Shown piece after piece: positions 3,528 through 28,679 of a stretch of 64,000 nucleotides of DNA; the stretch's first letter is position 1; each line of letters opens with the position of its first letter. Position numbers and translations under genes: made by a program. The notes under the pieces were generated by a model. The model worked only from the letters and a program-made list of their open reading frames with translations. It was not told where the DNA came from and did not search any database. The stretch is taken from the IMG/VR virus record IMGVR_UViG_3300045988_079613. One strand, given 5' to 3'. Source of the stretch: a virus.

Positions 3528-3529
3528 AA

Positions 3530-6273: not shown

Positions 6274-6421
6274 AAATCTAAAACAATTAAAAGGCTCTGA
6301 TGAGAGCGCTATTGAAGCTATGTATAATAATATTATTGTTGATAATACTGAAGAAGAAGCAAAGTATTCTGCAGTAGAAGTAGATGAAGGGACTTGTGTA
6401 GAAGATGGAATTGACGCCTGA
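6236..6421 (+). CDS. small acidic hypothetical protein (61 aa)
   Basis: ORF overlaps both neighbours. Coding status uncertain. Confidence 0.3.
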   Translation: MNITKEMELKNYKNLKQLKGSDESAIEAMYNNIIVDNTEEEAKYSAVEVDEGTCVEDGIDA

Positions 6422-6829: not shown

Positions 6830-6860
6830 GGGCTGTTGTGAAACAGCCCTATCTTTTTAT
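6830..6860. terminator. bidirectional rho-independent terminator between convergent modules
   Basis: GGGCTGTT-GTGA-AACAGCCC (6830-6849), A-rich before and T-rich after. TAA 6822-6824 (plus gene) and TAA 6857-6859 (minus gene, if TAG is read through) flank it. Confidence 0.75.
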
Positions 6861-7456
6861 TCTCCAAGTATCTATTTTTTGTAATAATTTCTTTTACTTT
6901 GTATATCTTTTAATTCCTATATATTCCTAAATGGAGTAAGTTTTAAAAGGTTGCGCTCTTGTTCAGTCCATCCTTTATAAGCACCTCGCTTAATAGTAGC
7001 ATCATAATAAGTTTCTTTTAACCACCAGTACTTAATCCTTTCATATAATAAACTAACAGGATTAGAGAATAATTCAAACATATTACTAACATAGTCTGTA
7101 ATAGCAGAAGGTGACTTGATAATAGATGCCATATCCAGAAGATTATATGGAGCTAATGTTTCAAATTGCGATCTTATTATAGTATATGCCAGTAGTTGTT
7201 TAATGATGTTTTTCTTGTCGTCGTCCGCTGACTGCTCTAATAGCGGTCTAAGAAACCAAACAAGGCCTCCATATAATATACCTTCAAAGACCAATCTAGC
7301 CAAATTTTCTCTTACTAGAGGATCTTCTTGATTAAGTCTTTTATAAGTCTTAATTACGTTTTCATTGTTTTCTATAGCATTATCAAATAATCTTACTACA
7401 GTTTTGAATACTCCTTCTCTGTATCTCTAAGCTTGATAATCCCATTGTCTTGTCAT
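6857..7456 (-). CDS. hypothetical virion-module protein, or the C-terminal part of the 7523-11278 ORF
   Basis: Same reading phase as 7523-11278, separated from it only by one TAA (7523-7525). First ATG after that TAA is at 7456. Three in-frame TAGs (7421-7423, 6917-6919, 6872-6874). Ends at TAA 6857-6859 next to the terminator. Confidence 0.4.
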
Positions 7457-7522
7457 TAACCATCTCTCTTGTAAAACAACCGGTAAATATTGTCTGTGCA
7501 TCATAACAAACTATCCTGCCCA

Positions 7523-10500
7523 ATTAGCCAAAATCACAGGCTTTTGTAAAGAAGTAAGCTACCCATCGGCTGATTGTGCTAGAGTTTTGGCAATATAAGC
7601 TATTTTATTCATAGCCTCATCTACTGCTTTCTAGTTTGTTTTATCTTTTGCTACCATTTTACCACCTACAAATTCTACAGCATCATAGAATGAAGTTTTA
7701 TTTCCTAGATTCCAATCCATGTAATCGCCGGGAGCATAAGTAGGAAGTTTATGTTTTCTTTTATATTCCTCTCTACTCATAAAAATTTTTTTACCGCCTT
7801 CTTCTACTAGCTTAAAATTATGCATAACAGAAGCAAGAATCTATCCTTTTACTACATGATCCATTAATGAATATGGACCGAATGCCCAATGTTTAGTGAC
7901 AGCATTAACTAATTGCATTCTGTTTGTAGCATTTGGATTAATTTCTGCACCTATTTCGAAAAGTTCCATAGCTTGAGTTATGAATGTTTTTTTCCTAGAA
8001 ACTCCCAGAACGTTCGATATAGCAAAAAATGAATCTGCTACAATATCAAAGAACGCATGACCAGCATCTATAGGATTGTAATATCTTTGTATTAACATAT
8101 TTGTAATATGCTAATGTAAAGCTGTATAAGCCCCTGTTAACGCACAAGCAAGATTTAAACCTAGATTTCTAAGAGTACCTAACATCTTAAGTATAGATAA
8201 CATTTTTGTAATGTTAATTTCTCTTGGTTTACTTATATCATAAGTAAGTCCAAAAACATTGCCTTTATACGGAATCAAGCCTAATACTTTTCCAGTAGGG
8301 TTATCTCCATATCTTACACTAACGTCTTGAGTTTTTATATCATACAAATTCATGTCTATAAAGTTTTTAACGAATTTGTATGTATTACTGTTTCCGGTTT
8401 TTTCCTCTCCTCTTTTGTTAGTGTATTTAATACCTTGTACGTATCTTTTTAATATTTCTATTCTAGGTTGTATTTGAGTTTTATTTTTCCAACTTTCACA
8501 CGACTTATAGAACTATATTACTGAACCAACTAAATCCGCAGTTAAATACTCAGGATTATCTAATCTTTTAAGATAATATTGAGGTATTACATTTAATCTT
8601 TCTCCATTAGGTTTAGTGAGAGCTCTATTAAAACCAACATCATCGTTTCTACATGATATAAGATCTTTCCAATAATCAATAAACCCTTTAAATGCTCCAG
8701 ATATATAATTTCTTTTCCAACCTGCATGTATATATTTTAACAAACTACCAGATTTCTGTGGAACCCTATAAGGATAAGTCTTATGCAGGTTAGTTAACTT
8801 ATCGTTAGATTCTTTTATAGTATCTAAGATAGCTTGTCTAAGATTCTTTAGAGCCTCATTATTCATTACTTTATGATAATTCTTACTATTATCATAAGAC
8901 TCAACTATTTTACCATCTTCTATTACTTTAGATTTTGGTATCCAGTATTCATTCTATAAGTCTGGGTACTTTTCCTAAGTCTCATAGTAAGATTTGTTAT
9001 AGAATTTGGATTCTTTAGATACCTCTAGCCAGTTACTATTAGGAGCATATTCTATCAAACTTTTATCCTTTGGTACTACTTTTGTATACCATGCTTTTGG
9101 ATTTTTAATGTCATAAGCATTAGCTTTTAGCCACATTTCAGCAGATTCTGGATCTTCTAATACTACATTATAGTAATACTTTTTAAGATCCCTATACCAC
9201 TGTTCTGTTGGTATTGTCTCTGCAATGTCCTCAAATTTGGCATCTCCTTCTTGTATTTCAACTTTTTTGTTTTTTCTAATGATAGACATCTATCTAGACA
9301 ATCTTTGTATAGCAGCTTTAGAATTAGCTGACATATGATCTATGTCTATATTACCCGTCATATCATCCCTATGTTGATTTAATATAGATCTGCGCCTTTC
9401 TTGTAGTTCTGCGTATACAGGACCGTAATATTTTTTTTCTAGCTTTTCTAGTTTCTGATAAAACTCATCTTTATAGCGTACTTGAGAATTTCGTTCTAAC
9501 CATTTCTGTTTTTGTTCTTTTGTCAGATTTGGATCAGCCATAATTTTAGCTTTTTCCTCCTCATATGCTTTACTATTCTTAGTCATAGTAAGACCTTCAG
9601 ATAACTTCTTATTCAGTTCCTATAATTCTTCAGCTATTTTAAGCTTCTCTCCTTGCTTTTTAATACCTGTAGTATCATATAAACTAGCCAGTTGTTTTTT
9701 CTCAAGTAAATAAGCTCTATATGTGTTATATTCCTTATCGCTAAGTCTATCTAGATGTGCTATACCAGCAGAATCTCTAGTTTTATCTACTAGCTGTCGT
9801 ATTTTTAATTGAATCTCCTCTCTAGCTGCTACCGTACCTTCACTTAAATGATTAAACATATCATAATACTCTCTAGTATATCTTCTATCTGTATGTTTAG
9901 ATAACCATTCATTTCTTCTCTTATTATACTCAATACGCAGCTATCTATTTTCTGGAGCTTTTATATCAGTAAGATCTACACCTAATTCTGATGCTATTTT
10001 TTTCATAGCATCTGCATAGTTCTTTTCAAATTTACCATAGTTTCTAGCTCGTACTATATAACCAGTAGTATTACCATCATCATCTACTTCAAATAACATT
10101 CTCTGATTATATTTTCCAGCTTTACTAAGTAAATCCTCAAGTTTTCTTATAACCTGGTAAGTATTTCTATTTGTTTCTTCTTCTGCTTTATTGATTAAGT
10201 AGAATATTGTCTTAATAGAATCATTGTTTATCTTATCACCAGCACCTATATAGTATGTAAGCCAAGCTATATCTCTCTAAGATGGTGATGGATTAGACAT
10301 TGAATAGTCATAGATAGTTGAGGACTTTACTTCTAGACCTACTTGCTTTAAATTCTATCTAGCATTATCAGCTATTTTACCTTTTACTATAGAATAACCA
10401 TCAGTAAGCATAGCTTGGTAGTCTTTAGCTCTTTTAAGCATTCTATCAAGTATATATTCACCACTACTATCTTTTCCTATTATTTCTCTGTAGTTGTCTT

Positions 10501-11278
10501 TATATATTAATTGACTTACTATCTCATCTACTATATCATTATAGAAACCAAAGAAGTTCTGATCTAGATCATTCAACTTAGTATCATCTATGTCCAGTCC
10601 TTTTCTACGGACATTAACGAGATATTCGAAGGTAGGTCGCAATTCAAATCTTAAATTAGCTAAAAATTCATTAATGTTATCTAAATCTGATTTAAGACCT
10701 TCACTAATATTTGCAATTAGCCATTCTGATTCTTTTTTTATCTTAGTTCTAAGTTCTGCGTCAGGATTAGTATTTACTTTTAATCTTGACTATAAACCTT
10801 TCAGTATCTTTACATTTATGTCTCTTAAAATACTATCTAGTTCTTCCTTTTCTTTAGAATTATAATTATCTTTTGTCTATTCTAATCCTATTTCTAAGTC
10901 ATTGTAAGCCTAATCAACGCGTTCTCTTAAGTCTTTATCTGTGTCAAAAAAAGACTTAGCTTCTTCACTTAAAGAATCTTGTGATTGATACTCTAACACC
11001 TACTAAGCAGTTGGTTCTATAGTTAAATCTTTATAAGTATTCTTAAAACCAATTAAAAAAACTTTAGATTTTTCCCTGATAGCCATTTTAGAATCATTGT
11101 TAAAATGACTTAAAAGATCCTAATATAACTTAGAATCTTTACCTTCACTATCAAACTCTAAGCCATAACCATTATTTTCAGATAAGACATAATAGGCAGC
11201 ATCATAGCTACCTAATATGTCAGTATACTCTTTTAACTATGCCTTTATTTCAGGCAATTCTGTTCTTAAACACGTCAT
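7523..11278 (-). CDS. large virion-associated protein (about 1,251 aa with TAG read as sense)
   Basis: Nine track ORF fragments (7631..10642) share one phase. Every gap was hand-translated: only TAG interrupts. ATG 11278 overlaps the upstream TGA (ATGA). Confidence 0.6.
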
Positions 11279-14200
11279 GATTTCTTACAATGTTTTTTAC
11301 GTTTTTTACCTTCTTCTTTAAGGTTATTCAGATACTCATTTACTTCTGTAATACCTGTTTCAGAGTCCTACAAGGATCCTATAATATCATCTACCAACTC
11401 TGTAGAATCAAAATAGGATTCGTCAGGCATTGCATAATCTTCTCCAAATGTATCATTAGCTTCTTCAATTCCTCCTAACATTTGATCTATTTCACCAAAA
11501 TCTTCTATTGTAGTAGAATTATCCGAAGTATCTACAAAACTTAAAGAAGGATCGCTATCAATTGATTCTGGATCAGATTGTATTCCACTATCTCCAAATG
11601 ATTCAATTAATTCATTTTGAAGTTCTTGATCTAAATTGGAATACTCCTAAGTTTTACCAACTTCAATATTAGAATACTACTCATCCTTAACAAACTGAGA
11701 ATCTTTAATAGTTTTAATATATTTATCTACTATACTATCTATATCCTCAACGGTTTGTTTGATCATTGTGTCTGTAAACTTGTTATTCTCGAATGCAGAT
11801 TGTTCTGTACCATTTTTATATAACTCATATATAGAACTTGCTCCATTATTGAAACCTAACTTAGGTATAGCAACATATACAATGCCGATAGTATTACCGT
11901 CTGCATCTACTATTTGTCCAGATCTCTGGTATAATACCGTATTAGTAGATCTAGAACCTCCTATTTTTACAAACTTATTATTCTTATTTATGTCTGATCT
12001 ACCTAATGCAATAAATACAGTATTCACAGAACTATTAGTACGGTCTTTAGAACTAGCTAGATACATTGTATTAGATTTAGATTCTTCTCCATATCTAACA
12101 TCTACTTTTGGTATATACAATGGAACTACATCATTATCTGCCCAGTAATTTCTTACCATATTTAAATAGATAGAATCTGTTAGTTCTTCTAAAGTAGAAG
12201 CATCCTAAATTATATCTATATCATTCCTTATCAGTTTGTTCATTGCATCTTTTATAGAATCTAAATATCCAATCTATTGTTTGTATTCCATTGGAACTAC
12301 ATTAAAGAATGAATTAGGAGTTCTATTATCATAACTAGTAACAAATGCATATTTTACCAAATCTTCTGCCAACTCTCTGACCATTTCGTCATCATTTGTA
12401 AGAAGATCGTAAAATGCTGACCTAAGTCTATCTTCATAATATCTCGAATTATTTAAAGAAGAAGTAGCAGTAACTATTTTGTTAGCTTTGTTTTTATTAG
12501 ATATGGTAATACCTTGTAGATAATTTAATAAATCGTTAGTAATATTGCCCTATTCATCTACTAAAGTAACTAAATTAGGATCCTATTTATTCTTTCTAAT
12601 ATAATTCTTGACAGCATTAAGTCTGCTAGCTATATTGTCCTTACCAAATGCCATACTGTTTAACTGTTCATCAGACAATCTAATATCAGTACCAGCTATC
12701 ACTACTTTAGCACGAATTATACTCTCTACTTTCTCATTTATTTTTTTCACTAATTCTTTATTACTAGTAGGTCTATATAACTATATAGAAAGAGAACCAT
12801 TAACTTGCTATGGATAATTACCACCTCTTAAATTATGCATTATACTCGTGAATATAGTCTTATAACCATTGGTAGCTCCAAATACTTGAGTTTTAAGTAT
12901 ATTATTAGCTAAATCCATAGCATATACTAATTTCTTATTTAAGAACGTCTTATTAAAGTAGTCCTCAAGCCCATTAAGATCCTCTCTACCTTCAGTATCA
13001 GGAGTAGAGAAGTCCTGTTGATGGTCTTTTATAAATGTCTGATATGAATTATAAAAGTTCTATAATTGAGTAATGTTATTACCATACTTTTTAGTATCTA
13101 TCTGAGAACGTTGAACTAAGTCTGCCATAGTTTGAGCATCTCCACTTAATTCATTATAAGCTGTAAGTACGATTAACTACATTTTAATATCCTGTGGAGT
13201 TACCTAGCCTCTTCTAAATGCATCTAATGTACGAGACAATCTATCCTTGTCAAATGCTAATTTTTTATCTTCATCTGTTATCTTAAGAATAGATTCCTTA
13301 TAAGACTATGATATAGGATAATTATTTAACATTTTAGTATATTTGTCTATCAGTCTACTAATTATAGTATTATCATACTACTGTTTAGATCCAATAGCAC
13401 CATTATTAGCAATCTTAATATTAGCAAATTCCTTTAATATAGGTTGAGCTAAGAAGAAGAACGTATTTTCTCCCTTTCCACCACGTAACAATAAACTAGT
13501 CATATTATATGTTACTTGATTCACATTAAGTTTAATAATGTAAGGATCTTTAGCTACATCGACATGAGCATTAATCATTGCAGATAACCAGTCTAATATT
13601 TTGAAACCATCCTGTCCATTGATTTCATCAAATTGACCAAGACCATAAATATTGTTATGTGAAAATTTCATATGTAGATGTGTGGCTTGAGTCAAGCAAT
13701 GGTTAGTAGAGTTAAGAGCAAAAGGTGCTATACCAGCTTTACCCCAAGTATATTCCATCTTTCTATACTCTTGGAACGATGGCATTAATTCATACATATA
13801 ATCTGCTTCTTTCATCTCATCTACACTTACTTTTGGAAGTATTTCCTTAGTAAGGATACCGGTTAATGTATCAATAGATGCTCTAGTTTCAGACAATGTT
13901 TTTTCATCAGATATTACTAGCGTATAACTATCTAACAGTTTATTTATCAGAGCTCCTTTAGATTGGTCAGAATAGGTTTTAGCATCTTCTTTCCAAGTAT
14001 ATCTCTGATGCGTATTAGGATCATACGAATATGTAGCTATATACAATTTATCAATATCAAAGTCAGAACCAGTCATAGCAGTAAATTCATCAGGTACTAC
14101 TATGGTATCTCCGGTCTATGCTGGTAAAACATCAGCTACTATGAAAGAGAAAGTAGATGACAAACCCTGAGTAGGTATACGATAACCTATACCATATGGA

Positions 14201-17200
14201 TCACTTTGACTACCTATTATATTATTATCCAGCAACCATTTTCTTATTGCTACGTAACCCTATTCCTATACATCCTATGGTACTACATCTCTAAAGAAGT
14301 TAGTACTAAGCATTACTTCCATACTACCTCTTTTAGGATCGAAACTAAGTTTTTTACCATCATTAAAAGGTCTAGTATCTTCGTTAGCATCTGTTATTAC
14401 ATCATTAGCTTTAAAACCAAATGATGCCATTTGAATAGCAGAACCTCCTGGAGTATTTACGTCTATTACTTCTTTATTTATTAAAGAAATTATTTTACTT
14501 TCAATCCAATTACGAACGCTAAGTGCTGCTATAGGAGCTTTAAAGTTACCCTTACTGTCAAGTTTTAATGCATCTATTATTTCTTGAGACATTCCATTTC
14601 CAGTAGCTTCTTCTACTAAATATCTAGACAAAGCAGCTTTATCTATAGAACCGTCTAATTTGAAGAATCTACCTTTCTTTTTCTTTCCATTGATAGTTCC
14701 TCCTTTTAAAGAAGTATAACCTAACGTAGACAATGCTTTAATACAACCAAATATATCCTTTTTTATTTGAGATCCAGATACATGCTTTCCTTTGTTATGA
14801 CCATAGTATCTATCATCTACTACATTACCCATACCAATTTTTATCGCTTGAGTACCGAATGATCTATCTGTATGTTCATGTGGATCTGTATTAAGCTGCA
14901 ATCTTAACTGTTTAATATCTTGAATTCTAGTTGTTAATCCATCATTAAGTCTTTCAACGGCATTACCATTCGTAACTATCATAGTAGATGGCTTATTTAA
15001 GCCTTCTTTATTGAAACTTGTATTTCTGTTGTCATTATAGGCTTTGAACTTATCTTGAGGAGCACCGACCTTAACTGCAGATTCAAACAATAACATGTCT
15101 ATCACACCCAATTCTTCATTATTCATTCTGTCATATAAATACTTATTATCCGCTTTGGCTAGTATCTTAAACATAGGGAATAATGCCATTTTATCGAATG
15201 TAGGTACATTTAATTTAGCTACAGAATCATAGTAATCACCAAAATACATCATCTTTAATGGTTTTATTGATGCTCTTAGAGCTTTACTATACAATTCTGG
15301 ATTACTAAGAACATCATCTGAAGATTCTAGTATATTATATGCTTCTTCTATCTCAGGAGACCATTCTCCTAAAGCTTGCATAATTCTCTTATACATAGCT
15401 GGTCTGATATATACAGCAGCATCTGCTTGATTTATATTGCCACTATTATTCTCATCATCATATGCATAAGGATTTGCAGCTTTCTCAGACTGTTTATCAA
15501 CAAATTTCTTGGAATCATCAGATAAACTGTCATAAGATTCTTGCATTCTATCTTCATTCTTAGTAGCATCAAATAGCTATTTATCTGTCATGTCTGGATG
15601 CTCTTTCTGTAACATAGTTCTTATGAAAGATGCTCTAAATATCTATTTCAATGAATCGTGATATTCAGACCCTATATTGTTATCCTACATAACAGCACTA
15701 ACGAATTTAGTATCATTTCGTGGATCTCCTTCTCCCCAGTATGTTCTGAGATTAGTACCAGTAGATAATACAGAAGACAAACGTTTGATTTTATCCACAT
15801 CTCTCTGGAATACACCTACTTCTTTGCTGGACTTCCACTTATAAAAAGCAGGATCTCCAACAAAACACTTTTCTACTTCTTCTATAGATATTGCGCAATT
15901 AGTTACAAAATTAGCTATTATACTATATATAGCATCATTAGAATTTATATCGTCATAAGATGATTGAAACTATGCTTTATATTTTGCATATATATTAGTA
16001 GGAAGATTACCAGAAGTAAGTTTACCAGATGAATCCCTAGATATTACTCCTAGTTTAATAGCTTCTTCTACTTCTTGATCTACTCTTCTTAATAACATTC
16101 TATTAAGAATATCATGCATACCAGCTACATCTTCTATGAACAATTTTCTGATATTGTCTAAAGTTTCATTAATTAACTTTGGATCATTGCTTTCTTCTGC
16201 AAATTGTAATAGATCATTTAATGAACGTATTTCTCCATCAGGCATTATTATTTGGTTAAAATATCTGAATCTACCACCATTTCCGCCTGGTTTCATTTTA
16301 CCATCTTTCCCTATTTTGCCGTGATAGTTAGAATAATATCTCGATCTTCCTTGTTCTACGTCAGACTTTGTATTATAATATTCAGTAATAGCATTAAATT
16401 CGTCTACAAAATAATTATAGAATATATTTAAAGTATTTTTACTAAATCTAAAATCAACTGGTACTTCTATTGTTTCCCCTTCAAAATTTGTAGTTGTAAC
16501 AACAGAATGTAGAAAATCTTTAGGAACATCTATTCCTTCTATGCTATACCATGTCTTTTTATCAGACATTGTAGGTAAAACTAATCTATTATTTTCAGAT
16601 AAAGTTAACTTTGTAATATAATCCTCCAATGGAGTTATACCAAAATAATCCCTACTAGTATCTGTTAACTCATCATTAATAGCTAATAAAGTATGCAGTT
16701 TTAATTTAGGTTTATTTTTTCCTAGCAGTGCTTTTACAATAAGACTATTCTTACAATAAGGAGTATTGTTTAAGTTCTGCAATTTTCCATATGCGTTAGT
16801 GTTTAACCATCTGATCTAATCGGACATATAGTTATTCTATGTGATAGGATATACTAAGCTACCATCTGCCCCAGTTACACTAAATTCTTCTGGAGTAGGA
16901 TGTGTTTCTCCATATGCAATAGCCATTAAGTTCAATACGCTGTTTGGATTATAATAATTAAATATCTTATCTGCACTAATAGTCACTCCTCTAAATTTAG
17001 TAACTAAAGTTTTATTAGCCGCCATTGCTCTAATATTCTCATATACAGAGTTTCTTATAGAATTTATAGCTGCTCCATTTTTAGAGTCTGTATTCTTAGT
17101 TCTGAATATCAAGTTAAAAGCGTCTACACCATCTATTCCAGTAGATTCCTTAGTACTTATACTACCTAATAAATAAGTAAGAGCATCATTGTCAAAATTG

Positions 17201-20200
17201 ATACCCAGATTATTAACTAAATCTAGAAAGTCATTCTTAATATCTTCAAACAATTTTATATTTTCAGGAGTACGTTTGCCTTTTAATATTAAATTAAGAC
17301 CAGAATCTATTCTATTTATTAATTTAGTTATTTCTGCTAAAGCTTTAGAATTTATAACAGATCTGTTCTTACTATCTGTAGTAATCATAGTAGACAGCAT
17401 AAAATTCTGCGACCATTGGGAAGGAAGTCTAGCTATTTTTCTTAAGTTATCACTGTCTTGTACTTCCCAAGTTCTTTTTCCTAATTCAGGATTAACATTT
17501 GCTGTAGATTTAATATCAATAGTATCCATACTATTCTTAGCACTCTGTATAGTAGTTAACAACTAAGTAATAGTATTTTCAGGAAGTGGATATTCAGGAT
17601 TATCTATATAGTCTCTGAGAGTAGCAAAGAACGGATCTGATTTCGCTAATCTTCTTACTTTTGATAACAAATCGTTCCAGTCATTAGAAGACCATAAATT
17701 CTCTAATATTTTATTCCAAGTAATATCAAATGGTTGTACTACATCCATATCAAAGATAGGATCTTTAATAGTATCTGTAATCTTTCCATCCTCTGTGAGA
17801 ATAAATTTGCTCTTAGGAATAGAATAGAAGAACAACTTAGCATTAAATGCTACATTGGCTTTTTTACTTATTTCATATGAATTTCTATCCCATATATTAT
17901 CATAAGTATCTCCAGGATCTTTAAGCATCTATTCAGCAACTTCTGTCTCTTCTCTTTCAATACTCTTAATACCTAATTCTTGTAAGAAAGCTCTAATTTG
18001 TTTAGCAAATATTTCTTTATTCTTTAATACATCTTCTACTATTTGTTTATTAGTAAGATTTTCATCATATACTCCATAATCATAGTTATACTGTATTATA
18101 TTAAATACGTCATCTAACTTCAAATTACGTATGTCATCCATAGTACGAATATTCAAAGTAGCAAGAGCTGTACTACTCAATGATTCTATAATATTGTACA
18201 TAGTAGATGCATTAGTTATATGCGGTGTAGACTTTTGTTGAACATCTGATATACCAGGAGCATAATAATACATGCCTTCTGGGTGTCTTTTAGCAAATTC
18301 TGATAGTATTTCCTGTCCGATAAACGGTTTACTATTTTTAAATTTACCAGATCTTATAGCTTGGAACAATGTCTGCTATGCATTAAGAGGTCTATTACGG
18401 AAAGATGTAACAAGATTCCACAAAGCTTTGAAGAATTTTTTCATCCTATATATAGGGGAAATATTAGATTCATTTATCATATAGGTTCTGAATTCCTCTG
18501 CTAATACTTCTTCCATCTGATCTTTAGTGTACCCTTTATACTCAGGATGAGCTTTTATATAATCCGAATACACCTAATTTCTTTGTTCTTCACTAAGAAT
18601 TAGTTGACTGACATAGTGAAATGCTTCGTGATATTCTATGCCCTATCCAGCCTATTCAGACAAAACTATCTATGGATTAAATTCTTTGAATATTCTATTA
18701 AAAGATACTTTCATTAGACCATATACTTCTGGAGCATCAGCCATTCTCATAACAGCTCCAGTAACCAGTACATTGTCAATATCTAAACCTAATTTATCTT
18801 TTAACCATTTTCTAGCTTTCTATTCATCAAACTTACCTCTCCTTTTTGTAGTAGAATAAATACCTGAACTCTTCTTCAGTTTAGCTACAATTGGATTATG
18901 ACTTGGCAACATTACAGTAGTACCATCCTCCTTAAGGATATATTCCCATCTTGGTTTAGGAGTAAGCCCCATGGATAATGCTTCATCTTTAGATAGAAGT
19001 TTGTCTTTAGAAGATGGCTTACTAGCTGGAGCTATCGCTTCTTGTTTTACTTCAGTATCTTGTGTACTTTCAGTAGGTACATTATCCTTTCTAGGAGTTT
19101 CTGTAGTAGTAGGTCCAGTTATAGTAGGAGTAACTGGAGTAGGATCTCCTACTTCTTGTGCTCCATCCGCGTATATAAAAGGATCTTTAAATGCCTGTTC
19201 TCCTACACTAGTTTTTATTACTTGATGATTAATCATCCAAGACATTAAAGTAGGTGCTTCTTCGTGAGCTCTAACTACTTCTCCTTTATCGTTCTTGGTA
19301 AGTCCTAGATCCTACATAGTGAATATCAGATCATCACAGTTTAGTACTCTATAATAATCTGTTTTATATTCATTCATATACTGTATAGCATGTTCTACAA
19401 TGCTATCTGGAATAGGATCTTGCATCATTTGTTTGTCAGTATTCCAGTGTATATTATTAGATATATCTCTAATAGTTTGCCAAGCTTCTGCTTCTGAAAA
19501 TACAGGTTGACCCTTAGCATCTTTTACTTTAAGATACTTAGTAGTATAGAATCCTTCAGGAGTTCTACTTCCATACATCAAAAAGGTTTCTCCTTTTTCG
19601 TTCTAGAAAGAATGTAAAGTCTTTCTAACATAGAATGATAACTTTTCTACACGAGAGTCACCCAGAGTAATAGTAGATGGTCCATGATTACATAAGATAT
19701 TCAATATATCTTTGTATACCTATTGATTACTTATTGGCAATGTACCGGTAACTAGTCTAAATACTAATTCAGCACTGGTAAGAGGTATACGTTTGCCATT
19801 ATCATCATATTTAGCTTTACCATTAGGAGTATAAGATGTAACAAGGGTGCTAGATCCTCCTGGTATGAAATGTCTTTTCTCAGATAGCATAATTGGAGCA
19901 CTAACTCTCTAAGATGGAGTATTTGCTACTTTTGGAATTATGTATAATTTACCAGCATATCCTGTTCCCTAAGCACTTGTCTTAGTAGAACCATCAAACT
20001 ATACTATAGTAAATGCATCTGCCGGATCAAGAGGAAAAGGACCTTTACCGTAACCAAATTCTACTTCTCCAGACAATATTTGGTCACTCATTTCATATGG
20101 ATCAGCACTAAGTCCGAATTCAGGTACACTTGTTAATGATCTGTATATAGGATTATTACCTTCCTATTGGCTGTTTATAGAACCATTACTTTGTCGTAAA

Positions 20201-23200
20201 TTTACTGGAACAATACCATTTTGAGGATTAATTGGTAAAGTCACTTCAGCATTACTAAAATAATTAGGAGCGTATTTTCTTATATATTTACCAATTATCT
20301 CTCTTCTAAGTTCTCGTAATTTACGTACTTCCTCATTTTGTTTATCTGTAGGAACACCCCATTTTCTTACCTTAGTTCTAGCTTTATCTGGAGTATACAA
20401 TGCAGCATTATAGATATATTTTTTTCCATCTATATCTTCTTCAATTATCATATGTACAGCAAGTCTATCTGCTGCATCTTTTTCTAACTTTCTAGTTTCT
20501 TTAGAATCTGTGACTATATAGTATACTTTCTATTTAGATAACCAACCTGGTATAGCTAACTTTTTAGACAATTCAGAACCAGGCATTCTAGTTCCATTGA
20601 ATTTGACATCTACAGATTTACCTTTTACTTGGGTCTATATAGGCATTACTTCTGTATTATCATACGCAAAGAAGAATGTAGAATGGATTCTATTAGTCTC
20701 TACTTTTTTCTTACTGTCTAAACCAGGACTTTTATCACTTTGACCCAATAGTTCTGCAGCTCTAGTAGTAGCTGCCAGATCTACAGAGTCTAGTTCTTCC
20801 ATAGCATTTTGTAAGGCTAGTTGACTATCTTCTATATGAGTTCCTAGAGATGGGTCTTCATTACCTACCCATACATCAGTTCCATCAGAATACACCATAT
20901 TTGATGGTTCTTCTATTGTAATAGTTACATCCTATGTATTAGAACCATCAAATGATTCTGCTGTAACAATTACCTTAGTAGGTTCATCAGGCTATTTTGC
21001 AGTGGCTACCTCTATAGGCTAATCTGTTTTCTCTTCTTTATCTTGTTCTTCTACAGTAGGTTGCGGGGATTCATCGGCAACAGTAGATTCAATAACCTAT
21101 TGTGGGGTTTGATCCTATGTATCAGGTTCTATACCATCTTCTACAGCGATAGGTTGCCCATCCTCTACTTGCTCTAGTTTTGCTCTTATTGCATCTTCTT
21201 GTAGTACATCATCTGATACTCTATCTAATTCAGATGCTTCTACAGGAGTATCAGTTTCTACTCTATCCTCTGGAAGTATTCCTGTACTATCTTCCATCAA
21301 TATCTTGTTAGGATCCTATTCTAAAGTATCCTCTAATATTCTATCTATATCCTCCTATGTAGATAACTATACCTCATCTACTGGCGGTTGTTCTTGAGTA
21401 GAAGAGTCTACAGAATCTACAGGGGCTTGAGCAGTTGTTCTGTTCTATTCTGTATGTTCTGTAGTAACATTTACTTCATCTGGAGTATCGCTTTTTTCTC
21501 TATTTACTTGAGGTTTTATTTCAGGTTGGTCTATTATTTTTTCTTGAGTATCGGATTGCTCTTTATCATTAGCTAATTGCTCTGAAGTTTGTTCTCCATC
21601 GTTTTCAGCAGCTCTGTGTCCAGTCTCCTGTTCAATTTCAGTTTTAGCCTATGTTTCTTCTTGAACATCTCTTCTATTATTACTTAAAAATAAAGAATTG
21701 GCTAGAAATCTTTCAGTCTACTCTACATTAGCATCATTCTCCAAAGCACTCCATTGGTCTTGAATAGTTTTATTATAGTAGGCTATTACTTGTTTCCTAG
21801 TCGGCTCTTCATCTGTACTATACTGTTGTTTATATTTCTCAGAGTATTTCTATAGTACATTCTATTTATCTTCATCTGATAAATTGGAATATATAGGTTT
21901 ACTTTCTACTAAATATCTATCCTTTGTAGATAGTCTACCTGTAGTATAAGCATTAAGCTATGCATTTAAACTGCTAAGAATACCAGTATTTAATGCATTT
22001 ATAGCCATTTCTTGTTCTAATTCCTGTTTATTTCCGAAATCTGGAGCCTTAGACATTATATGGTCGATCCACTTATCTTTCTATCTTAAACTATTTTGTT
22101 CTCCTTGTAGATCTTTTAGTGAATCGTTTATGTACTTTAACATACCCTCTACACCAGTAATAGATACCTATATTCCATATTCGTCCTTTAACTATTCCAA
22201 AGTCTTCTTTCTAGATGTAAGATCTCTTTTCAGATTAGTAAGAGTGTTTGTCAAGGTTCTAGAACTAACAGCGTTTACTATTGATGATTTAAATTGCTGC
22301 TTTGTTATTGGTTCTGCATTCTATTTTCTTTGTGCGTTAGCATAAGCTTCATATTCTGAATTTATAAATGAATTAAAATCATTTACATCTTCATTATTTA
22401 TTATAGAGTTATTAATGTCACTTATACGTTTATCACTTTCGTTTTTAGCACTTGAAGCATCCTTCTATTTATCATAAAGGCTTACAGTAGTCTATACAAA
22501 TCTCTCAAAAAATTTATCTTTTTTACGATCTACACCTATATCTTTTAGATTCTGATCAATAAGCTTATTTCTATAAATAGCAGATACATCTTTTGCAAGA
22601 CGTATATCATCATCAATCATATCATCTGTAACACCTTCTGTTTTATACTTTTTGAAATCTTCTAAACTAGTAGTGAGGCTGTTGATATCTCTACCTTTTC
22701 TAGAGTAATCCAGAAATTGAGCTATTTTAAAGTTATTTTCAGCATTTTCAAACCCCTTAGCAGCTAATGCTTTTACTACATTGTCTCCTTGTAATTGATG
22801 TCTGATATCGTTGATATTTGTTAGATTTGCTCCACTTCCCATAAGAGCTCCGATAAATCCTCCAATACCCATTTCTATCTTTAATTGTTCATCGGTGTTA
22901 TATTTATCGTCCCAGTGCATACCTCTATATGCTAAATTAGCTTCTAAAGCTAATCTACCAGCTGTGGCGGCACCTCTAAATATATTATATGTATCTGGTA
23001 CCTATGCATTATCAGGAAGATCCTAATACCATCTTCCTATCATTCCTTGCTATCCTTCTTCAGTACTTTCAAACAACCATCTCTTACCTAAAGCTAATGC
23101 CATGTCTGTTCCAGCATCTCTAACATGTTTAGCCTTCATTCTAGTCACAGGACTTTTCATAAGTTTAACTGCGGCTTTATCTATCTTTGAATTAAGTTTA

Positions 23201-24738
23201 GATAAAAGAGCAGCAGTTGTCTTGTTTTTGGTAGCTAAATCTACAGCCTTGTTCATTATAGCTTTGAAACCTATAGATTTATTCAACAGCTTACCACCAT
23301 AACTTAAACCTAAGTTTTCAGCATAATCACCTAGAGCTAAAGCGTTATTAGTTTCTTCTATCTGTGTTAAACCTTTGCGAGCATCCTTGGCAAAAGTATT
23401 GTAGTTATTATCTTTAGTAGGTATATTATATGCCAAACCAAACTACAATGTTTCCATTTCATCCATTTTATCAGCATCGTAACCCATGGCTTTCAAACCA
23501 GCAGCATAGTCATTCAATACTGTAGATAAATCAAATTTACCATCTGCAGCAGCATTAGCTAATTTTTCAACATAATTAGACATTACTTCTCCTGCAGTTT
23601 CTTTATGTCTAAAATATCGTGTAAATAAAGAGTTGACAACAGCTTCCCCAGCAGCCCAAGCCAAAGGACCACCACCTAATTTGGTACCATATTTCACACC
23701 AAGTGCGGTAAGCATTTGCCATCCCATTCCCTATAATTCTGATGCACTACTACCTATATGCAACATACCATACTTCCAAGTAGTTGGATCTAAAGCAGAT
23801 ATCTAAACTTCTCCACGTTTCTTATCAAGAATAGGATCAATTACTTCAGGATTGTAAAATATTGGCATCGGAACAATTCCAAATAGAGGATCATGTAACC
23901 AATGCGCTGTCTTTAAACTCTATTGTTTCTATTTTAATTCATCATCTTTACTATCATATTCTAACTTAGCATCAGATAATTGCTTTTGTAAATTAGCAGC
24001 TTTTATATCTAACTAGCTAACTGTAGTTGGAAATGTATTAGTAAAATCGGGGTTATTCTATTTCCAAGATAAATCAGCATAGTAAGGAGATAATCTTCCT
24101 TCCGCTAGTTGATTCCTTACTGTAGAAGCTTCTATTGTTCTACTTGGTAACAAAGGGTTTACAGACTCTGTTACAGCTCCATAAAATACATTACTTAGAT
24201 AAGGATTGGTCTTAGCTTTCTATTTTATATCTTCTTGTAATTTCAACAACTCTTCAAGTTTCTGTTGTGAGGCTTGAATGAGATCTGTATTCTATGGGTT
24301 AGCTTTTAATTGATTTTGGAGTTGGATATATTCTTTCTAACCCTATATATAATTCTGCGCTTCTTCAATCTCTGGTAACCATTTACCTTCAGTATCCATT
24401 AGTTCTTTCTGTCTAGAAGTAATGTTCAAAGATAAAGCGTCTCTAGTATTTATATTAACTGCCTATTCAGCAAATGTAGTAGTTTTTCCAGATTCTGTAG
24501 TAGGCTCAAATAGTTTCTTACCACCAATAACTACAGAAGAAGCTATAGGATTTAGCAAAAATGCAGATACTTTGTTTATAATACCTAGACTAGTTTCTTG
24601 TTTATCTTCAGAAATGTTAGATTCCTGTTCCTATATAGGAGTGGCATATTCATCATCTATACGTCCGTAATAACCTGTACCGAACTAACTATCATTAGTT
24701 CTATTTATTACTGATAAAAAATCGTCAGAAAATTTCAT
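11275..24738 (-). CDS. giant multidomain virion protein containing a crAss-type virion RNA polymerase domain (4,487 codons)
   Basis: The listed ORF fragments between 11677 and 23727 share one phase. All gaps were hand-translated: about 78 in-frame TAGs and no TAA/TGA from ATG 24738 to TGA 11275-11277. GSDFDIDKLY (DFDID at 14050-14064) matches the DxDxD metal-binding signature of crAss-like virion RNAPs (phi14:2 gp66 type). HEAFH at 18616-18630. Acidic low-complexity linker at about 20900-21700. Confidence 0.75.
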
Positions 24739-24749
24739 AAGTTATTATA

Positions 24750-26423
24750 TTAAAGGTTTTCTTCCTAAGATAACATATCTTGTATATCTTGTGTTTTTGT
24801 TTGTATTCCAAGATTCTTGTCCATCCAAGCTGCATCAGAAGTTATGGCAGCTTCTCCACTTCTAGGTAATTGCTGTAGTACAGTAATTCTGATAGTTTTT
24901 ACAGGAGTACTTGAAGATGTGGTAGTACTCTCCAAATTTCCTCTATTGTCATATCTTTCTGTAGTTTTAGGACCTGCATCCACAGTTACTGGAGTACCCA
25001 AAGCTGATAATGATTTTCTATCTATTCTGGCTTTTAGTAATTGATCTTCTGGAATGTATGCATGTTTTACTATATATATATCATTACCATCAGATATCAT
25101 TCTCTGGTCAGAAGATATTTTAAAGTTAGAGAAATTATTTCCATCATTCCACAGACTAATAAACTTCTATAATCCTTTGTCAGCATCTTTTCCAATTGTA
25201 TTATATACTAATTCTTTGGCTAACTTGAAATTTGAACTATTATTTGCTGTGTAGAAACCATCTTTATCCTATTTTCCTGTAGTACCATAGGCTGCATACT
25301 TATCAGAAGCTTCATAGCTTATAGGAGTAGACATAAGATCAATTACAGCATTTTCTGCAGTACTTCTCCTTCTTGTATCTTTCAGTACCTGATCGTAGTA
25401 ATTTTTCATTTTACTTTCTACATAACCTGGATTCTTAAGATTAAGAACCTCCTGTTGCTTTTCAGGAGAAAGGGCTTTAAAACCTTGTTCTGCAAATGCA
25501 TCCACTTCCTATGGAGTAAGGTTGGTAAACCTAAGTAAGTGATTCCTGGTAGCATCTGATTCTAGTACTCTGGTAAGATTGAGTAAATTATTGGCAGTAT
25601 TAGCAGCAGACGCATATTTGCGTTGTAACCTCATATTTTCTATAGCTACAGGATCTCTGTCTGCTTTATTCCATGTATACTCTCTACCTGCAGTATATAT
25701 CTCATTAAGTAATTGTTGTTGAGCCTGTTCAGGATTAAGCCCCATTTTCTAATATGTTTCTAGATATTTCTGGTACTGAGGAGTATTCTGTATACTTGAC
25801 AAATTTTTCTATAGTTGAGCATCTGTCATTTCATTAGTAACACCATTCCATAGAAATCCATTCTTAGAACCAAGAAATTCGCCTTTAAGGTTATTAACAT
25901 AAGGCTCTACTAATTCCCTTACAGACATATAAGGAAGAGGAGTTATATCATCAAATATTTTCTTACTACCTAACGTATCATAATTAGCAAAGTCTACGTC
26001 ATGCCATAGGGGGTTAAACCTATTCTCTAACATTAATCTTTGATTAATTTCTTGACGTTTTAGCATAGCATCTCTACTAGATTTTAGATTACTTAACGCT
26101 GCGTAATCTACACTGTTTATCATAGACTGTAATTGTGATCTAAATGCGGCATCTTTCAATGCATCAGGATTAGATACCATCTGATTAATAGCATTCTAGA
26201 AATCATTTCTACCTACAGTAAGATCATAATATCTCTGGGTATCTATTAGAGAAGGAGACTAAAATTCATTAAATCTCTACAGTTGAGCTCCAAACTATTG
26301 AGCTGCTTCATCTATAGCAGCTTTCTAGGCTGCCCCAATTCTATATAACTCTCCAAAATTAATCGGAGCATAAGTATTTATAAACTGAGCCTACGCGGCT
26401 TGATCGTACATATTTGCTGCCAT
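24750..26423 (-). CDS. hypothetical virion protein (about 557 aa)
   Basis: Four same-phase fragments joined by TAG only. ATG 26423 lies 1 nt after the upstream TAA (26425-26427). Ends ...DMLS-TAG-EENL-TAA. Confidence 0.55.
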
Positions 26424-26424
26424 A

Positions 26425-28677: not shown

Positions 28678-28679
28678 GA

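What the first reader, a model, noticed from the sequence alone, without database searches (positions are those of the whole stretch)
11275..24738. 4,487-codon single ORF fusing a crAss-type virion RNA polymerase to about 3,500 upstream residues
One uninterrupted frame (with TAG as sense) runs 13.4 kb. The DFDID motif (14050-14064, in ...PDEFTAMTGSDFDIDKLY) is the DxDxD catalytic signature described for crAss-like virion RNAPs, which are distantly related to RNAi-type two-barrel polymerases. It lies about 3,560 residues from the N-terminus. TAG density is uneven. The N-terminal third has about 1 TAG per 26 codons and includes an acidic disordered linker (about 20900-21700). The polymerase core fragments (13378-17562) have 230-420-codon TAG-free stretches. 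Fusion of cargo-like regions and RNAP into one polypeptide of this size is unusual.
Basis: partly seen in the sequence, partly recalled or inferred. Interest (0 to 1): 0.8.

Follow-up and report, generated by a model that had tools for sequence, protein, structure and literature searches.

The report
Giant fused crAss-phage virion RNA polymerase gene
This 13.4-kb gene is real and encodes the virion-packaged RNA polymerase of a Suoliviridae crAss-like gut phage, fused to an upstream partner protein with a zinc-protease-like domain and read with TAG as glutamine, but the same giant gene is already annotated in every sampled relative and described in the literature, so it is ordinary for this family.

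Summary
A minus-strand ORF runs from ATG 24738 to TGA 11277-11275. It has 4,487 codons, 78 in-frame TAG and no TAA or TGA (chance about 1e-102). DFDID lies at 14050-14064.

TAG is glutamine. 61 of the 78 TAGs align to Gln or TAG in the 84%-identical ortholog of crAssphage cr60_1 (Suoliviridae, Buchavirus), which carries a tRNA(CUA).

The single frame is not an artefact. All seven sampled Suoliviridae genomes annotate one collinear CDS of 4,328-4,946 aa, four of them with no in-frame stop at all. dN/dS is 0.03-0.13 in every segment.

The polymerase module is aa 2183-4345, collinear with phi14:2 gp66 residues 113-2177. The non-polymerase part is therefore about 2,100 residues, not 3,500. It ends in a zincin-like HExxH…ExxAExF domain (aa 1921-2150) shared with the C-terminus of the ΦcrAss001-type gp47-like protein.

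The downstream ORF is the gp49/gp65-type partner, which p-crAssphage fuses to its polymerase instead.

Giant fused RNAP ORFs, zincin partners and TAG recoding are published hallmarks of crAss-like phages. Verdict: real, correctly recognised, already known, low interest. Uneven TAG density mostly reflects Gln content.

The parts
11275..24738 (-). Giant ORF, 4,487 codons plus TGA stop; 78 in-frame TAG read as Gln
   Evidence: Ortholog of cr60_1 YP_010112422.1: 84% aa identity, collinear.
21709..23991 (-). N-terminal region conserved across Suoliviridae (aa 250-1010). Helical, with Gly/Ala-rich moderately hydrophobic stretches near aa 340-375 and 620-640. No known domain.
   Evidence: jackhmmer matches to cr118, cr10, cr50 and cr109 N-termini; alignment A5; no Pfam or PHROG hit; hydropathy only marginal.
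24325..24468 (-). aa 91-138: short N-terminal copy of an RNAP-module motif (NIN..DA…G.W.PEIEEA.NY)
   Evidence: BLASTP 36% identity over 44 aa, E = 3e-6, to aa 3101-3144. HMM of the internal copy hits the N-terminus only in the window and cr60_1.
20869..21708 (-). Acidic low-complexity linker, aa 1011-1290 (26% D+E)
   Evidence: Highest dN/dS of the ORF (0.13) but still constrained and in frame.
19039..20868 (-). Middle region, aa 1291-1900, ending in a Pro/Thr-rich linker (about aa 1862-1915). Lineage-restricted, no known domain.
   Evidence: dN/dS 0.078.
18289..18978 (-). Zincin-like metallopeptidase domain, aa 1921-2150
   Evidence: Family profile matches the Kehishuvirus (ΦcrAss001-type) gp47-like protein, residues 2055-2264, E = 4e-28. 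Profile vs PDB: best hit Zmp1/PPEP-1, E = 0.0067. AF2 model has helix, three strands, HExxH helix, Glu helix. BFVD hits to crAss orthologs and polyvalent-protein domains. dN/dS 0.041.
18616..18630 (-). HEAFH (aa 2037-2041), putative zinc-binding and catalytic motif
   Evidence: Invariant in 8 of 8 Suoliviridae giants and in the Kehishuvirus gp47-like protein.
18490..18510 (-). E2077-x-x-A-E2081-x-F2083, putative third zinc ligand helix
   Evidence: Invariant columns E163, A166, E167 and F169 of alignment A1. Aligned to EEFFAESF of Zmp1.
18196..18288 (-). Linker of about 30 aa (aa 2151-2181) between the zincin and RNAP modules; candidate processing site
   Evidence: pLDDT below 50 at P0001 residues 229-241 and 251-259, which equal window aa 2151-2181. 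Junction inferred from the gp47-like and gp66 alignments.
11704..18192 (-). Two-barrel virion RNA polymerase module, aa 2183-4345
   Evidence: Collinear with phi14:2 gp66 113-2177 (23% identity over 1,793 columns, E = 1.6e-117), the Kehishuvirus gp50-like protein 277-2394 (E = 5.7e-56) and p-crAssphage gp44 880-2172.
14050..14064 (-). DFDID catalytic motif, aa 3559-3563
   Evidence: Aligned to gp66 1361-DFDID-1365.
13693..13785 (-). Bridge-helix equivalent, aa 3652-3682
   Evidence: Mapped from gp66 1529-1559 (element limits from bioRxiv 10.1101/2020.03.07.982082).
13486..13602 (-). Trigger-loop equivalent, aa 3713-3751 (…NAHVDVAKDPYI…)
   Evidence: Mapped from gp66 1598-1636.
11278..11703 (-). 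Acidic C-terminal tail, aa 4346-4487 (26% D+E), ending in the basic cluster KKRKKHCKKS. No counterpart in gp66.
6857..11278 (-). Downstream gene (1,473 aa, 23 TAG). Its ATG overlaps the giant's TGA (ATGA). It is the gp49/gp65-type RNAP-associated virion protein.
   Evidence: Profile hits: Kehishuvirus gp49-like E = 1.1e-99, phi14:2 gp65 E = 7.6e-61, p-crAssphage gp44 residues 3181-4050 E = 9.9e-28.
24750..28707 (-). Two upstream genes (564 and 760 aa), positional counterparts of the ΦcrAss001 cargo proteins gp46 and gp45
   Evidence: Synteny and size only (PMC10172136). No significant BLAST hit to the Kehishuvirus proteins.

Best explanation
The ORF is the Suoliviridae version of the crAss-like virion transcription module. 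Two proteins that are separate in ΦcrAss001-type phages are encoded here as one polypeptide. One is the gp47-like RNAP-associated protein, which ends in a zincin-like metallopeptidase domain. The other is the gp50/gp66-type two-barrel DNA-dependent RNA polymerase.

Shown here:
- The frame is intact and under purifying selection along its whole length.
- TAG is decoded as Gln.
- aa 2183-4345 are collinear with the solved gp66 polymerase, including DFDID and the stretches that map to its bridge helix and trigger loop.
- aa 1921-2150 carry an invariant HExxH…ExxAExF gluzincin signature.
- The next gene, translationally coupled by an ATGA overlap, is the third partner (gp49/gp65 type).

Inferred from the characterised relatives phi14:2 and ΦcrAss001:
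- The protein is made late in infection, once the phage tRNA(CUA) allows TAG read-through.
- It is packaged in the capsid as cargo.
- It is threaded, partly unfolded, through the tail ahead of or with the DNA.
- It refolds in the host and transcribes the TAG-free early genes on the opposite strand.

The embedded zincin most likely cuts the polyprotein at or near the roughly 30-aa flexible linker (aa 2151-2181), or removes an inhibitory segment, so as to release or activate the polymerase. This last step is inference only.
For: Frame: 0 TAA/TGA in 4,487 codons, P about 1e-102.

Orthologs: collinear single CDS in 7 of 7 sampled Suoliviridae genomes. cr10_1, cr118_1, cr50_1 and cr1_1 have no in-frame stop of any kind.

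Selection: dN/dS 0.03-0.13 in all nine segments at dS about 1.2, and no frameshift or TAA/TGA in either genome.

TAG = Gln: 45 of 78 window TAGs align to Q and 16 to TAG in cr60_1. tRNA(CUA) is present in cr60_1 just upstream of TerL. ORF coverage rises from 9,576 to 21,360 aa when TAG is read as sense. The plus-strand replication genes are TAG-free.

RNAP: 6VR4 E = 4.7e-31. Family profile vs gp66 E = 1.6e-117 over residues 113-2177, with DFDID aligned and the bridge-helix and trigger-loop stretches mapped.

Zincin: invariant HExxH and ExxAExF. E = 4e-28 to the C-terminus of the ΦcrAss001-type gp47-like protein. Zmp1/PPEP-1 E = 0.0067. AF2 topology matches the zincin core described in PMC5512222. 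BFVD matches to polyvalent-protein domains at E about 1e-3. It is the second most constrained segment.

Partner gene.

Virion packaging of all three partner proteins is shown by mass spectrometry in ΦcrAss001 (PMC10172136) and phi14:2, and early-gene transcription by gp66 is shown in bioRxiv 10.1101/2020.03.07.982082. That paper also states that the proteins are fused into a huge polyprotein in some phages, 'likely cleaved'.
Against: No protein-level data exist for this phage. No Suoliviridae member has been cultured (PMC10136315).

The zincin assignment is sub-threshold in Pfam (ATLF 15.4 bits against a cutoff of 27.4). It is not significant in Foldseek against PDB (best E = 0.38).

Cleavage is not demonstrated. 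The analogous N4 virion RNAP, also fused to a zincin, is packaged unprocessed (PMC5512222).

Outside the zincin domain, no homology was detected between the N-terminal 1,900 aa and gp47, p-crAssphage gp45 or phi14:2 gp67. Their equivalence rests on position and size.

The suppressor tRNA was not found inside the window.
Confidence: 0.85

Rival explanations
1. Same gene, but the giant protein is never cleaved. It is packaged and ejected as one polypeptide of about 500 kDa, as N4 vRNAP is. The zincin domain then serves encapsidation, acts on host targets or peptidoglycan, or is an inactive scaffold.
For: N4 vRNAP carries a zincin domain yet is packaged unprocessed, and that region is needed for encapsidation (PMC5512222). 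Drobysheva et al. also raise peptidoglycan digestion as a possible role (bioRxiv 10.1101/2020.03.07.982082). No conserved cleavage motif was identified here. The fusion is stable across four Suoliviridae subfamilies.
Against: In other families the same modules work as separate proteins, so covalent linkage is not required for function. The zincin catalytic residues are invariant and under strong constraint, which argues for an active enzyme. A low-confidence linker of about 30 aa lies exactly at the module boundary.
Confidence: 0.3
2. The long frame is not translated as a whole. TAG still terminates, fully or partly, so the locus yields short products, or only an internally initiated RNAP is made. 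The N-terminal 'protein' would then be an annotation illusion.
For: With 78 TAGs, even 95% read-through per site would leave under 2% full-length product (arithmetic). No tRNA was found in the window. Standard-code ORFs of 230-430 codons cover the RNAP core.
Against: Four orthologs encode the same collinear protein with no in-frame stop. TAG positions align to Gln. dN/dS is 0.07-0.13 across the TAG-rich N-terminus, with only in-frame indels. The relative cr60_1 has tRNA(CUA). TAG→Gln was confirmed by metaproteomics in a Suoliviridae phage, as summarised in PMC10136315.
Confidence: 0.03
3. The single ORF is an assembly or sequencing artefact that joins two or more genes.
For: It comes from a metagenome-type sequence of unknown provenance. 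The size is extreme for a bacterial-virus gene.
Against: Seven other, separately deposited genome records, down to roughly 20-30% aa identity, show the same collinear single CDS of 4,328-4,946 aa. The chance of such a frame is about 1e-102.
Confidence: 0.01

Closest known systems
crAssphage cr60_1 (Buchavirus hominis, Suoliviridae) gp27, YP_010112422.1, 4,494 aa, and the equivalent CDS of cr125_1, cr109_1, cr10_1, cr118_1, cr50_1 and cr1_1
   Same: Direct ortholog: 82% nt and 84% aa identity, collinear end to end. It sits in the same gene neighbourhood, has the same ATGA coupling to the next gene, and is TAG-recoded (55 TAG). The whole family shares the architecture N-terminal region, zincin, RNAP.
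   Different: About 18% nucleotide divergence, so probably a different species or strain. RefSeq names these proteins misleadingly ('nuclear pore complex protein-like', 'DNA helicase', 'exonuclease V', 'DprA-like') and does not flag the RNAP. Four relatives use the standard code.
Cellulophaga phage phi14:2 gp66 virion RNAP (PDB 6VR4)
   Same: The two-barrel DNA-dependent RNAP is homologous over gp66 113-2177. DFDID, bridge helix and trigger loop align.
   Different: gp66 is a stand-alone 2,180-aa protein. Its zincin-bearing partner, gp65, is the downstream gene (HExxH at residue 245). Identity is only about 23%. There is no acidic C-terminal tail and no TAG recoding.
ΦcrAss001-type gp47, gp50 and gp49 (compared here through Kehishuvirus 'tikkala')
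   Same: The gp47-like C-terminal zincin matches window aa 1921-2150. The gp50-like RNAP matches aa 2274-4359. The gp49-like protein matches the downstream ORF. All three are capsid cargo by mass spectrometry in ΦcrAss001 (PMC10172136).
   Different: They are three separate genes, and gp47 is on the opposite strand from gp49 and gp50. No detectable similarity between gp47 residues 1-2050 and window aa 1-1900.
p-crAssphage (Carjivirus communis) gp45 and gp44
   Same: Same three modules. gp45 ends in a zincin (HExxH at 1743 of 1,957 aa). gp44 is a 4,070-aa RNAP fusion protein.
   Different: The fusion partner differs. There the RNAP is fused at its C-terminus to the gp49/gp65-type protein and the zincin protein is separate. 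Here the zincin protein is fused at the N-terminus and the gp49-type protein is separate.
Phage N4 virion RNAP gp50 and other 'polyvalent proteins' (Iyer et al. 2017, PMC5512222)
   Same: A giant virion-packaged polymerase (about 3,500 aa) fused to a zincin-like MPTase and delivered into the host to transcribe early genes. The zincin model has BFVD matches to polyvalent-protein domains.
   Different: The N4 polymerase is a T7-like single-subunit enzyme, not a two-barrel RNAP. The resemblance is one of architecture, not shared ancestry of the polymerase.
Thermus phage P23-45 tape-measure-fused virion RNAP (bioRxiv 10.1101/2022.12.01.518664)
   Same: A two-barrel virion RNAP embedded in a giant multifunctional polypeptide of about 5,000 aa (abstract seen).
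   Different: There the RNAP is the N-terminal part of a tail tape measure protein of a long-tailed phage. No sequence comparison was made here.

Membership tests
crAss-like virion RNAP (gp66 type, two-barrel) | DFDxD catalytic motif with Ile or Val at the fourth position | tested here: met
   TGSDFDIDKLY at aa 3556-3566, aligned to gp66 1361-DFDID-1365.
crAss-like virion RNAP (gp66 type, two-barrel) | Collinear homology across both barrel regions, connector, bridge helix and trigger loop of the solved enzyme | tested here: met
   Profile E = 1.6e-117. gp66 113-2177 corresponds to aa 2183-4345, with 1,793 aligned columns at 23% identity. The fold itself was not modelled.
crAss-like virion RNAP (gp66 type, two-barrel) | Located in the transcription block next to the structural genes of a Crassvirales genome, with gp65/gp49-type and zincin-bearing partners | tested here: met
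   Synteny with 7 Suoliviridae genomes, phi14:2, p-crAssphage and Kehishuvirus.
crAss-like virion RNAP (gp66 type, two-barrel) | Packaged in virions, injected, and transcribes early genes | not testable with these tools
   Known only for phi14:2 and ΦcrAss001 (bioRxiv 10.1101/2020.03.07.982082; PMC10172136).
Zincin-like (gluzincin) metallopeptidase, lethal-factor/Zmp1 or polyvalent-protein MPTase type | HExxH on a helix plus a downstream Glu ligand on the next conserved helix | tested here: met
   HEAFH 2037-2041 and E2077/E2081 are invariant in 8 sequences and nearly invariant in 51. They align with HETAH…EEFFAESF of Zmp1.
Zincin-like (gluzincin) metallopeptidase, lethal-factor/Zmp1 or polyvalent-protein MPTase type | Core fold: N-terminal helix, three-stranded sheet, two active-site helices | tested here: inconclusive
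   The AF2 model of homolog P0012 (pLDDT 78) has that order of elements. Foldseek vs PDB is not significant (best E = 0.38), though the top hits are SPRTN, MATCAP and IrrE/PprI, with anthrax lethal toxin lower in the list (rank 40). BFVD gives polyvalent-protein and SprT-like hits at E = 1e-3 to 3e-2.
Zincin-like (gluzincin) metallopeptidase, lethal-factor/Zmp1 or polyvalent-protein MPTase type | Reaches a curated family threshold (Pfam) | tested here: not met
   Best hit is PF07737 ATLF at 15.4 bits against a cutoff of 27.4. No hit at E ≤ 0.1 with the long segments.
Zincin-like (gluzincin) metallopeptidase, lethal-factor/Zmp1 or polyvalent-protein MPTase type | Proteolytic activity or self-processing | not testable with these tools
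   Inference only.
TAG→Gln recoded (code 15) late genes of crAss-like phages | In-frame TAG at positions occupied by Gln in orthologs | tested here: met
   Window TAGs align to Q at 45 positions and to TAG at 16, out of 78. In the reverse direction the counts are 26 Q and 16 TAG out of 55.
TAG→Gln recoded (code 15) late genes of crAss-like phages | Phage-encoded suppressor tRNA(CUA) | tested here: inconclusive
   None in the 64-kb window. It is present in cr60_1 at 24176-24250, upstream of TerL. By synteny that position falls beyond the window end.
TAG→Gln recoded (code 15) late genes of crAss-like phages | Early/replication genes free of in-frame TAG | tested here: met
   The seven plus-strand ORFs between 17 and 6273 have 0-1 TAG, against 11-36 per 1,000 codons in most minus-strand genes.
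Suoliviridae giant fused ORF (N-terminal region, zincin, RNAP) | One collinear CDS of about 4,300-4,950 aa between the ~600-aa gene and the gp49-type gene | tested here: met
   7 of 7 sampled genomes from four subfamilies.

The most novel reading that the evidence does not exclude
The Suoliviridae fusion may be a self-delivering, self-activating polymerase. In this reading the N-terminal ~1,900 aa thread first through the tail and envelope. This part includes the Gly/Ala-rich segments, the 280-aa acidic spacer, and in this lineage a decoy copy of an RNAP motif at aa 91-138. It pulls the polymerase in behind it. The embedded zincin then cuts in cis at the aa 2151-2181 linker inside the host to switch the enzyme on. 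That would be a convergent, two-barrel counterpart of the N4 vRNAP design. The different fusion partners in different crAss families would then mark different orders of ejection.
Probability: 0.2. Interest if true: 0.45.

Novelty: already known. Interest (0 to 1): 0.15.

Why it matters
It matters little as a discovery. Orthologous single CDSs are in RefSeq, and the giant fused RNAP genes, their zincin partner and TAG→Gln recoding are published crAss hallmarks.

There is practical value in three points.
- Several RefSeq product names for these orthologs do not flag the RNAP ('nuclear pore complex protein-like', 'DNA helicase', 'exonuclease V', 'DprA-like'). They could be replaced by a residue-level module map: zincin at aa 1921-2150 and RNAP at aa 2183-4345.
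- The three-module comparison shows directly that different crAss families fuse the polymerase to different partners. This gives natural constructs for testing whether and where the zincin processes the cargo.
- The locus is a stringent test case for near-complete TAG suppression, with 78 sites in one essential protein.

Tried and rejected
- **PHROGs and Pfam:** scans of the whole protein in three pieces found nothing usable.
- **phmmer vs PDB:** aa 1501-3000 gave only noise.
- **Structure prediction with the window's own sequence:** The 99%-identical P0001 and the compact homolog P0012 were modelled instead.
- **Foldseek vs PDB:** no significant match with either model. The zincin call therefore rests on motifs, a marginal profile hit and BFVD matches.
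- **Homology of the N-terminal 1,900 aa:** none found to Kehishuvirus gp47-like, p-crAssphage gp45 or phi14:2 gp67 with BLAST, jackhmmer or hmmsearch --max.
- **Transmembrane helices in the N-terminal half:** Kyte-Doolittle gives only marginal, non-conserved segments. A membrane-channel role is not supported by this test.
- **Differential recoding between cargo and polymerase halves:** rejected, since the TAG share of Gln codons is 39% vs 30%, p = 0.15.
- **Inteins or introns inside the giant ORF:** no sign, as it is collinear with the stop-free orthologs.
- **Index-based homolog searches:** few and fragmentary hits, mostly no longer than about 500 aa in the zincin searches. They could not be used to count fused against unfused architectures.
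- **Not used:** the exhaustive representative-protein search, because it returns no names or context.

Full report
**1. Observation**

On the minus strand, the frame that opens with ATG at 24738 runs to TGA at 11277-11275. It has 4,487 sense codons, 78 in-frame TAG, no TAA and no internal TGA. The codon just upstream of the ATG follows a TAA, so the ORF cannot be longer. Off-frame TAA+TGA rates on the same strand are 5-12% per codon. The chance of such a frame is therefore about 1e-102 or lower, and no other TAA/TGA-free frame in the window exceeds 1,790 codons. DFDID is at 14050-14064, aa 3559-3563. The TAG-free blocks in 13378-17562 and the acidic stretch (aa 1011-1290, 26% D+E) are as described.

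One figure is wrong. The N-terminal third has one TAG per 38 codons, and only the first 340 codons reach one per 26. TAG as a fraction of all Gln codons does not differ significantly between the N-terminal half (39%) and the polymerase half (30%), Fisher p = 0.15. The unevenness mostly reflects Gln content.

**2. TAG is a sense codon, and the frame is a real gene**

Reading TAG as sense raises long-ORF coverage of the window from 9,576 to 21,360 aa, essentially full coverage. Most minus-strand genes use TAG at 11-36 per 1,000 codons. The plus-strand replication genes at 17-6273 (Sak4-like, primase, ATPase, phosphoesterase, exonuclease) have none, or one ambiguous case.

The closest database relative is crAssphage cr60_1 (Suoliviridae, Loutivirinae, Buchavirus hominis), at 81.9% nucleotide identity over 98% of the ORF. 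There the region is annotated as one CDS of 4,494 aa, YP_010112422.1. The two proteins are 84% identical and collinear. Of the 78 window TAGs, 45 face Gln and 16 face TAG in cr60_1. cr60_1 encodes a tRNA with anticodon CUA just upstream of its terminase gene. By synteny that position lies beyond the end of this window, which explains why no tRNA was found here.

dN/dS between the two genomes is 0.03-0.13 in each of nine segments. This includes the TAG-rich N-terminus and the acidic linker. dS is about 1.2, and neither genome has a frameshift or a TAA/TGA anywhere in the frame.

**3. The giant ORF is a family trait**

Every Suoliviridae genome I opened has the same gene order: virion structural protein of about 1,370 aa, a gene of about 700 aa, a gene of about 600 aa, the giant CDS, a gene of 1,380-2,000 aa, then inverted replication genes. 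The giant CDS sizes and in-frame TAG counts are:

| Genome | Giant CDS (aa) | In-frame TAG |
|---|---|---|
| cr60_1 | 4,494 | 55 |
| cr125_1 | 4,502 | 78 |
| cr109_1 | 4,328 | 70 |
| cr10_1 | 4,460 | 0 |
| cr118_1 | 4,946 | 0 |
| cr50_1 | 4,774 | 0 |
| cr1_1 | 4,551 | 0 |

The four stop-free orthologs show that the single polypeptide does not depend on how TAG is interpreted. The agreement of separately deposited genome records rules out an assembly artefact.

**4. Anatomy**

*Polymerase module.* A direct phmmer search places aa 3093-3970 on PDB 6VR4, phi14:2 gp66 residues 969-1849 (E = 4.7e-31), with TGSDFDIDK aligned. A profile built from the eight Suoliviridae giants extends this to gp66 residues 113-2177, corresponding to window aa 2183-4345 (E = 1.6e-117). 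Identity is 23% over 1,793 aligned columns. The bridge helix maps to aa 3652-3682 and the trigger loop to aa 3713-3751 (element limits from bioRxiv 10.1101/2020.03.07.982082). The same profile matches the ΦcrAss001-type gp50-like protein of Kehishuvirus (residues 277-2394, E = 5.7e-56) and p-crAssphage gp44 residues 880-2172.

The polymerase module is thus about 2,160 aa. Since gp66's own DFDID sits at residue 1361, most of the '3,500 upstream residues' are polymerase. The real extra is about 2,100 aa at the N-terminus plus a 142-aa acidic C-terminal tail.

*Zincin-like domain.* Immediately upstream, aa 1921-2150 match the C-terminal end (residues 2055-2264 of 2,310) of the Kehishuvirus gp47-like 'RNA-polymerase subunit' (E = 4e-28). 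The segment carries YHEAFH.VS (aa 2036-2044) and, 36 residues later, E-x-x-A-E-x-F. These are invariant in all eight giants and in Kehishuvirus, and nearly invariant in 51 metagenomic homologs.

- A profile of this segment finds the Clostridioides difficile zincin Zmp1/PPEP-1 as best PDB match (E = 0.0067), aligned over both motifs.
- Pfam's anthrax lethal factor family is the best but sub-threshold hit.
- An AlphaFold2 model of the compact homolog P0012 (pLDDT 78) has an N-terminal helix, three strands, the HExxH helix and the Glu helix. This is the zincin core as described in PMC5512222.
- Foldseek against PDB gives no significant match (best E = 0.38), although its top hits are the minimal zincins SPRTN, MATCAP and IrrE/PprI, with anthrax lethal toxin lower in the list at rank 40.
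- Against BFVD it finds the crAss orthologs (E down to 1e-19), then 'large polyvalent protein associated domain' proteins (E about 2e-3) and SprT-like proteins (E about 3e-2).

The segment is the second most constrained in the ORF (dN/dS 0.041). I regard 'zincin-like metallopeptidase' as well supported at motif level and only suggestively at fold level. p-crAssphage gp45 is annotated 'RNAP associated protein fused to zincin protease', with HExxH at 1743 of 1,957 aa.

*Junction.* Between the zincin and the polymerase lies a stretch of about 30 aa with low model confidence (aa 2151-2181).

*N-terminal 1,900 aa.* This part has no Pfam, PHROG or PDB match.

- aa 250-1010 are conserved across the family.
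- aa 1011-1290 are an acidic spacer.
- aa 1291-1900 are lineage-restricted.

No similarity to gp47, gp45 or gp67 outside the zincin was detected. Hydropathy gives no convincing transmembrane helix.

*Downstream gene.* The gene at 6857-11278 (1,473 aa) starts with an ATG that overlaps the giant's TGA. Its family profile matches Kehishuvirus gp49-like (E = 1.1e-99), phi14:2 gp65 (E = 7.6e-61) and residues 3181-4050 of p-crAssphage gp44 (E = 9.9e-28).

**5. Module comparison across families**

Three modules recur: A (ending in a zincin), B (RNAP) and C (gp49/gp65 type).

| Lineage | Arrangement |
|---|---|
| ΦcrAss001-type Steigviridae | A, B and C are separate genes |
| phi14:2 | Three genes; the HExxH sits in gp65 |
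| p-crAssphage | [A-zincin] and [B-C], the latter 4,070 aa |
| Suoliviridae, including this window | [A-zincin-B] and [C] |

**6. Mechanism**

Shown: an intact, constrained, TAG-recoded frame; a gp66-type polymerase with DFDID aligned and the stretches that map to the bridge helix and trigger loop; a conserved gluzincin signature directly upstream; and a coupled gp49-type gene.

Inferred from phi14:2 and ΦcrAss001: the protein is made late, packaged as capsid cargo, extruded partly unfolded through the tail, and transcribes the early genes. In those phages all three partners are virion proteins, and gp66 transcribes early genes (bioRxiv 10.1101/2020.03.07.982082; PMC10172136).

That the zincin cleaves the polyprotein, most plausibly in the aa 2151-2181 linker, is a hypothesis already voiced by Drobysheva et al. 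('likely cleaved into individual components'). The main rival is the N4 precedent of an unprocessed zincin-fused virion polymerase (PMC5512222).

**7. Novelty**

- The Crassvirales review calls RNAP genes of 'up to ~6000 aa' a hallmark. It also reports metaproteomic confirmation of TAG→Gln in a Suoliviridae phage (PMC10136315).
- Yutin et al. describe TAG recoding of RNAP genes in the Delta group (PMC7886860).
- Orthologous single CDSs are in RefSeq.

The finding is therefore real and essentially correctly interpreted, but already known. What this analysis adds is a residue-level module map, the correction of the size of the non-polymerase part, direct evidence for alternative fusion partners, and the note that the database product names are misleading.

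Noticed in passing
window 24325-24468 (aa 91-138) and 15307-15438 (aa 3101-3144), minus strand: The N-terminus of the giant protein carries a 44-aa copy of a conserved RNAP-module motif. NINTRDALSLNITSRQKELMDTEGKWLPEIEEAQNYI resembles NINQADAAVYIRPAMYKRIMQALGEWSPEIEEAYNIL (36% identity, E = 3e-6). The internal copy corresponds to gp66 residues ~953-997 and is conserved across crAss families. The N-terminal copy is detectable only in the window and cr60_1, and is weakly visible in cr125_1. Its function is unknown.
   Followed up: partly
proteins P0021, P0028, P0030 (homologs of window aa ~1921-2150) and P0055 (homolog of window aa 250-1010): Relatives carry extra enzymatic domains in the non-polymerase part. 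Some Steigviridae-type gp47 C-termini have an ADP-ribosyltransferase (PF18760 ART-PolyVal) between the zincin and the C-terminal KGWT…EER…C motif. One homolog of the N-terminal region has a family-2 glycosyltransferase at residues 1247-1402. This fits a 'polyvalent protein' style of domain accretion. The window protein has neither domain.
   Followed up: partly
window 61184-62206, minus strand: A TAG-free ORF of 340 aa matches GIY-YIG/homing endonuclease families (phrog_314, E = 6e-40). It sits among TAG-recoded late genes and is probably an intron- or intein-associated mobile element, as reported for Delta-group crAss phages.
   Followed up: no
window 36797-38340, 40834-42102, 48092-49918, 57992-58999 and 60427-61203, minus strand: Several genes in the late block contain no in-frame TAG at all. 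They include a tail protein (phrog_5302) and a tail-spike-like protein (phrog_4636). Their neighbours have 11-36 TAG per 1,000 codons. This could reflect recent acquisition, earlier expression or simply low Gln content; it was not tested.
   Followed up: no
window 6291-6824, plus strand: The last ORF of the otherwise TAG-free plus-strand block needs three TAGs read as sense to reach 177 codons. cr60_1 annotates shorter separate ORFs at the equivalent place. It is unclear whether this is one recoded gene or several short ones.
   Followed up: no
L001, L003, L005, L006, L008 (RefSeq records of cr60_1, cr125_1, cr118_1, cr50_1, cr109_1): The orthologs of the giant RNAP fusion are named 'nuclear pore complex protein-like protein', 'exonuclease V', 'DNA helicase' or 'DprA-like DNA recombination-mediator protein'. 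None of these names is supported by the domain analysis here.
   Followed up: yes
L011 12092-12567 and 24176-24250 (cr60_1): ARAGORN calls the tRNA at 24176-24250 'tRNA-Pyl' (anticodon CTA), while RefSeq calls it tRNA-Gln. It sits directly upstream of TerL at the head of the recoded late block. ARAGORN also reports a permuted tmRNA-like call overlapping a tRNA-Leu(TAA) at 12092-12567. I did not evaluate that call.
   Followed up: partly
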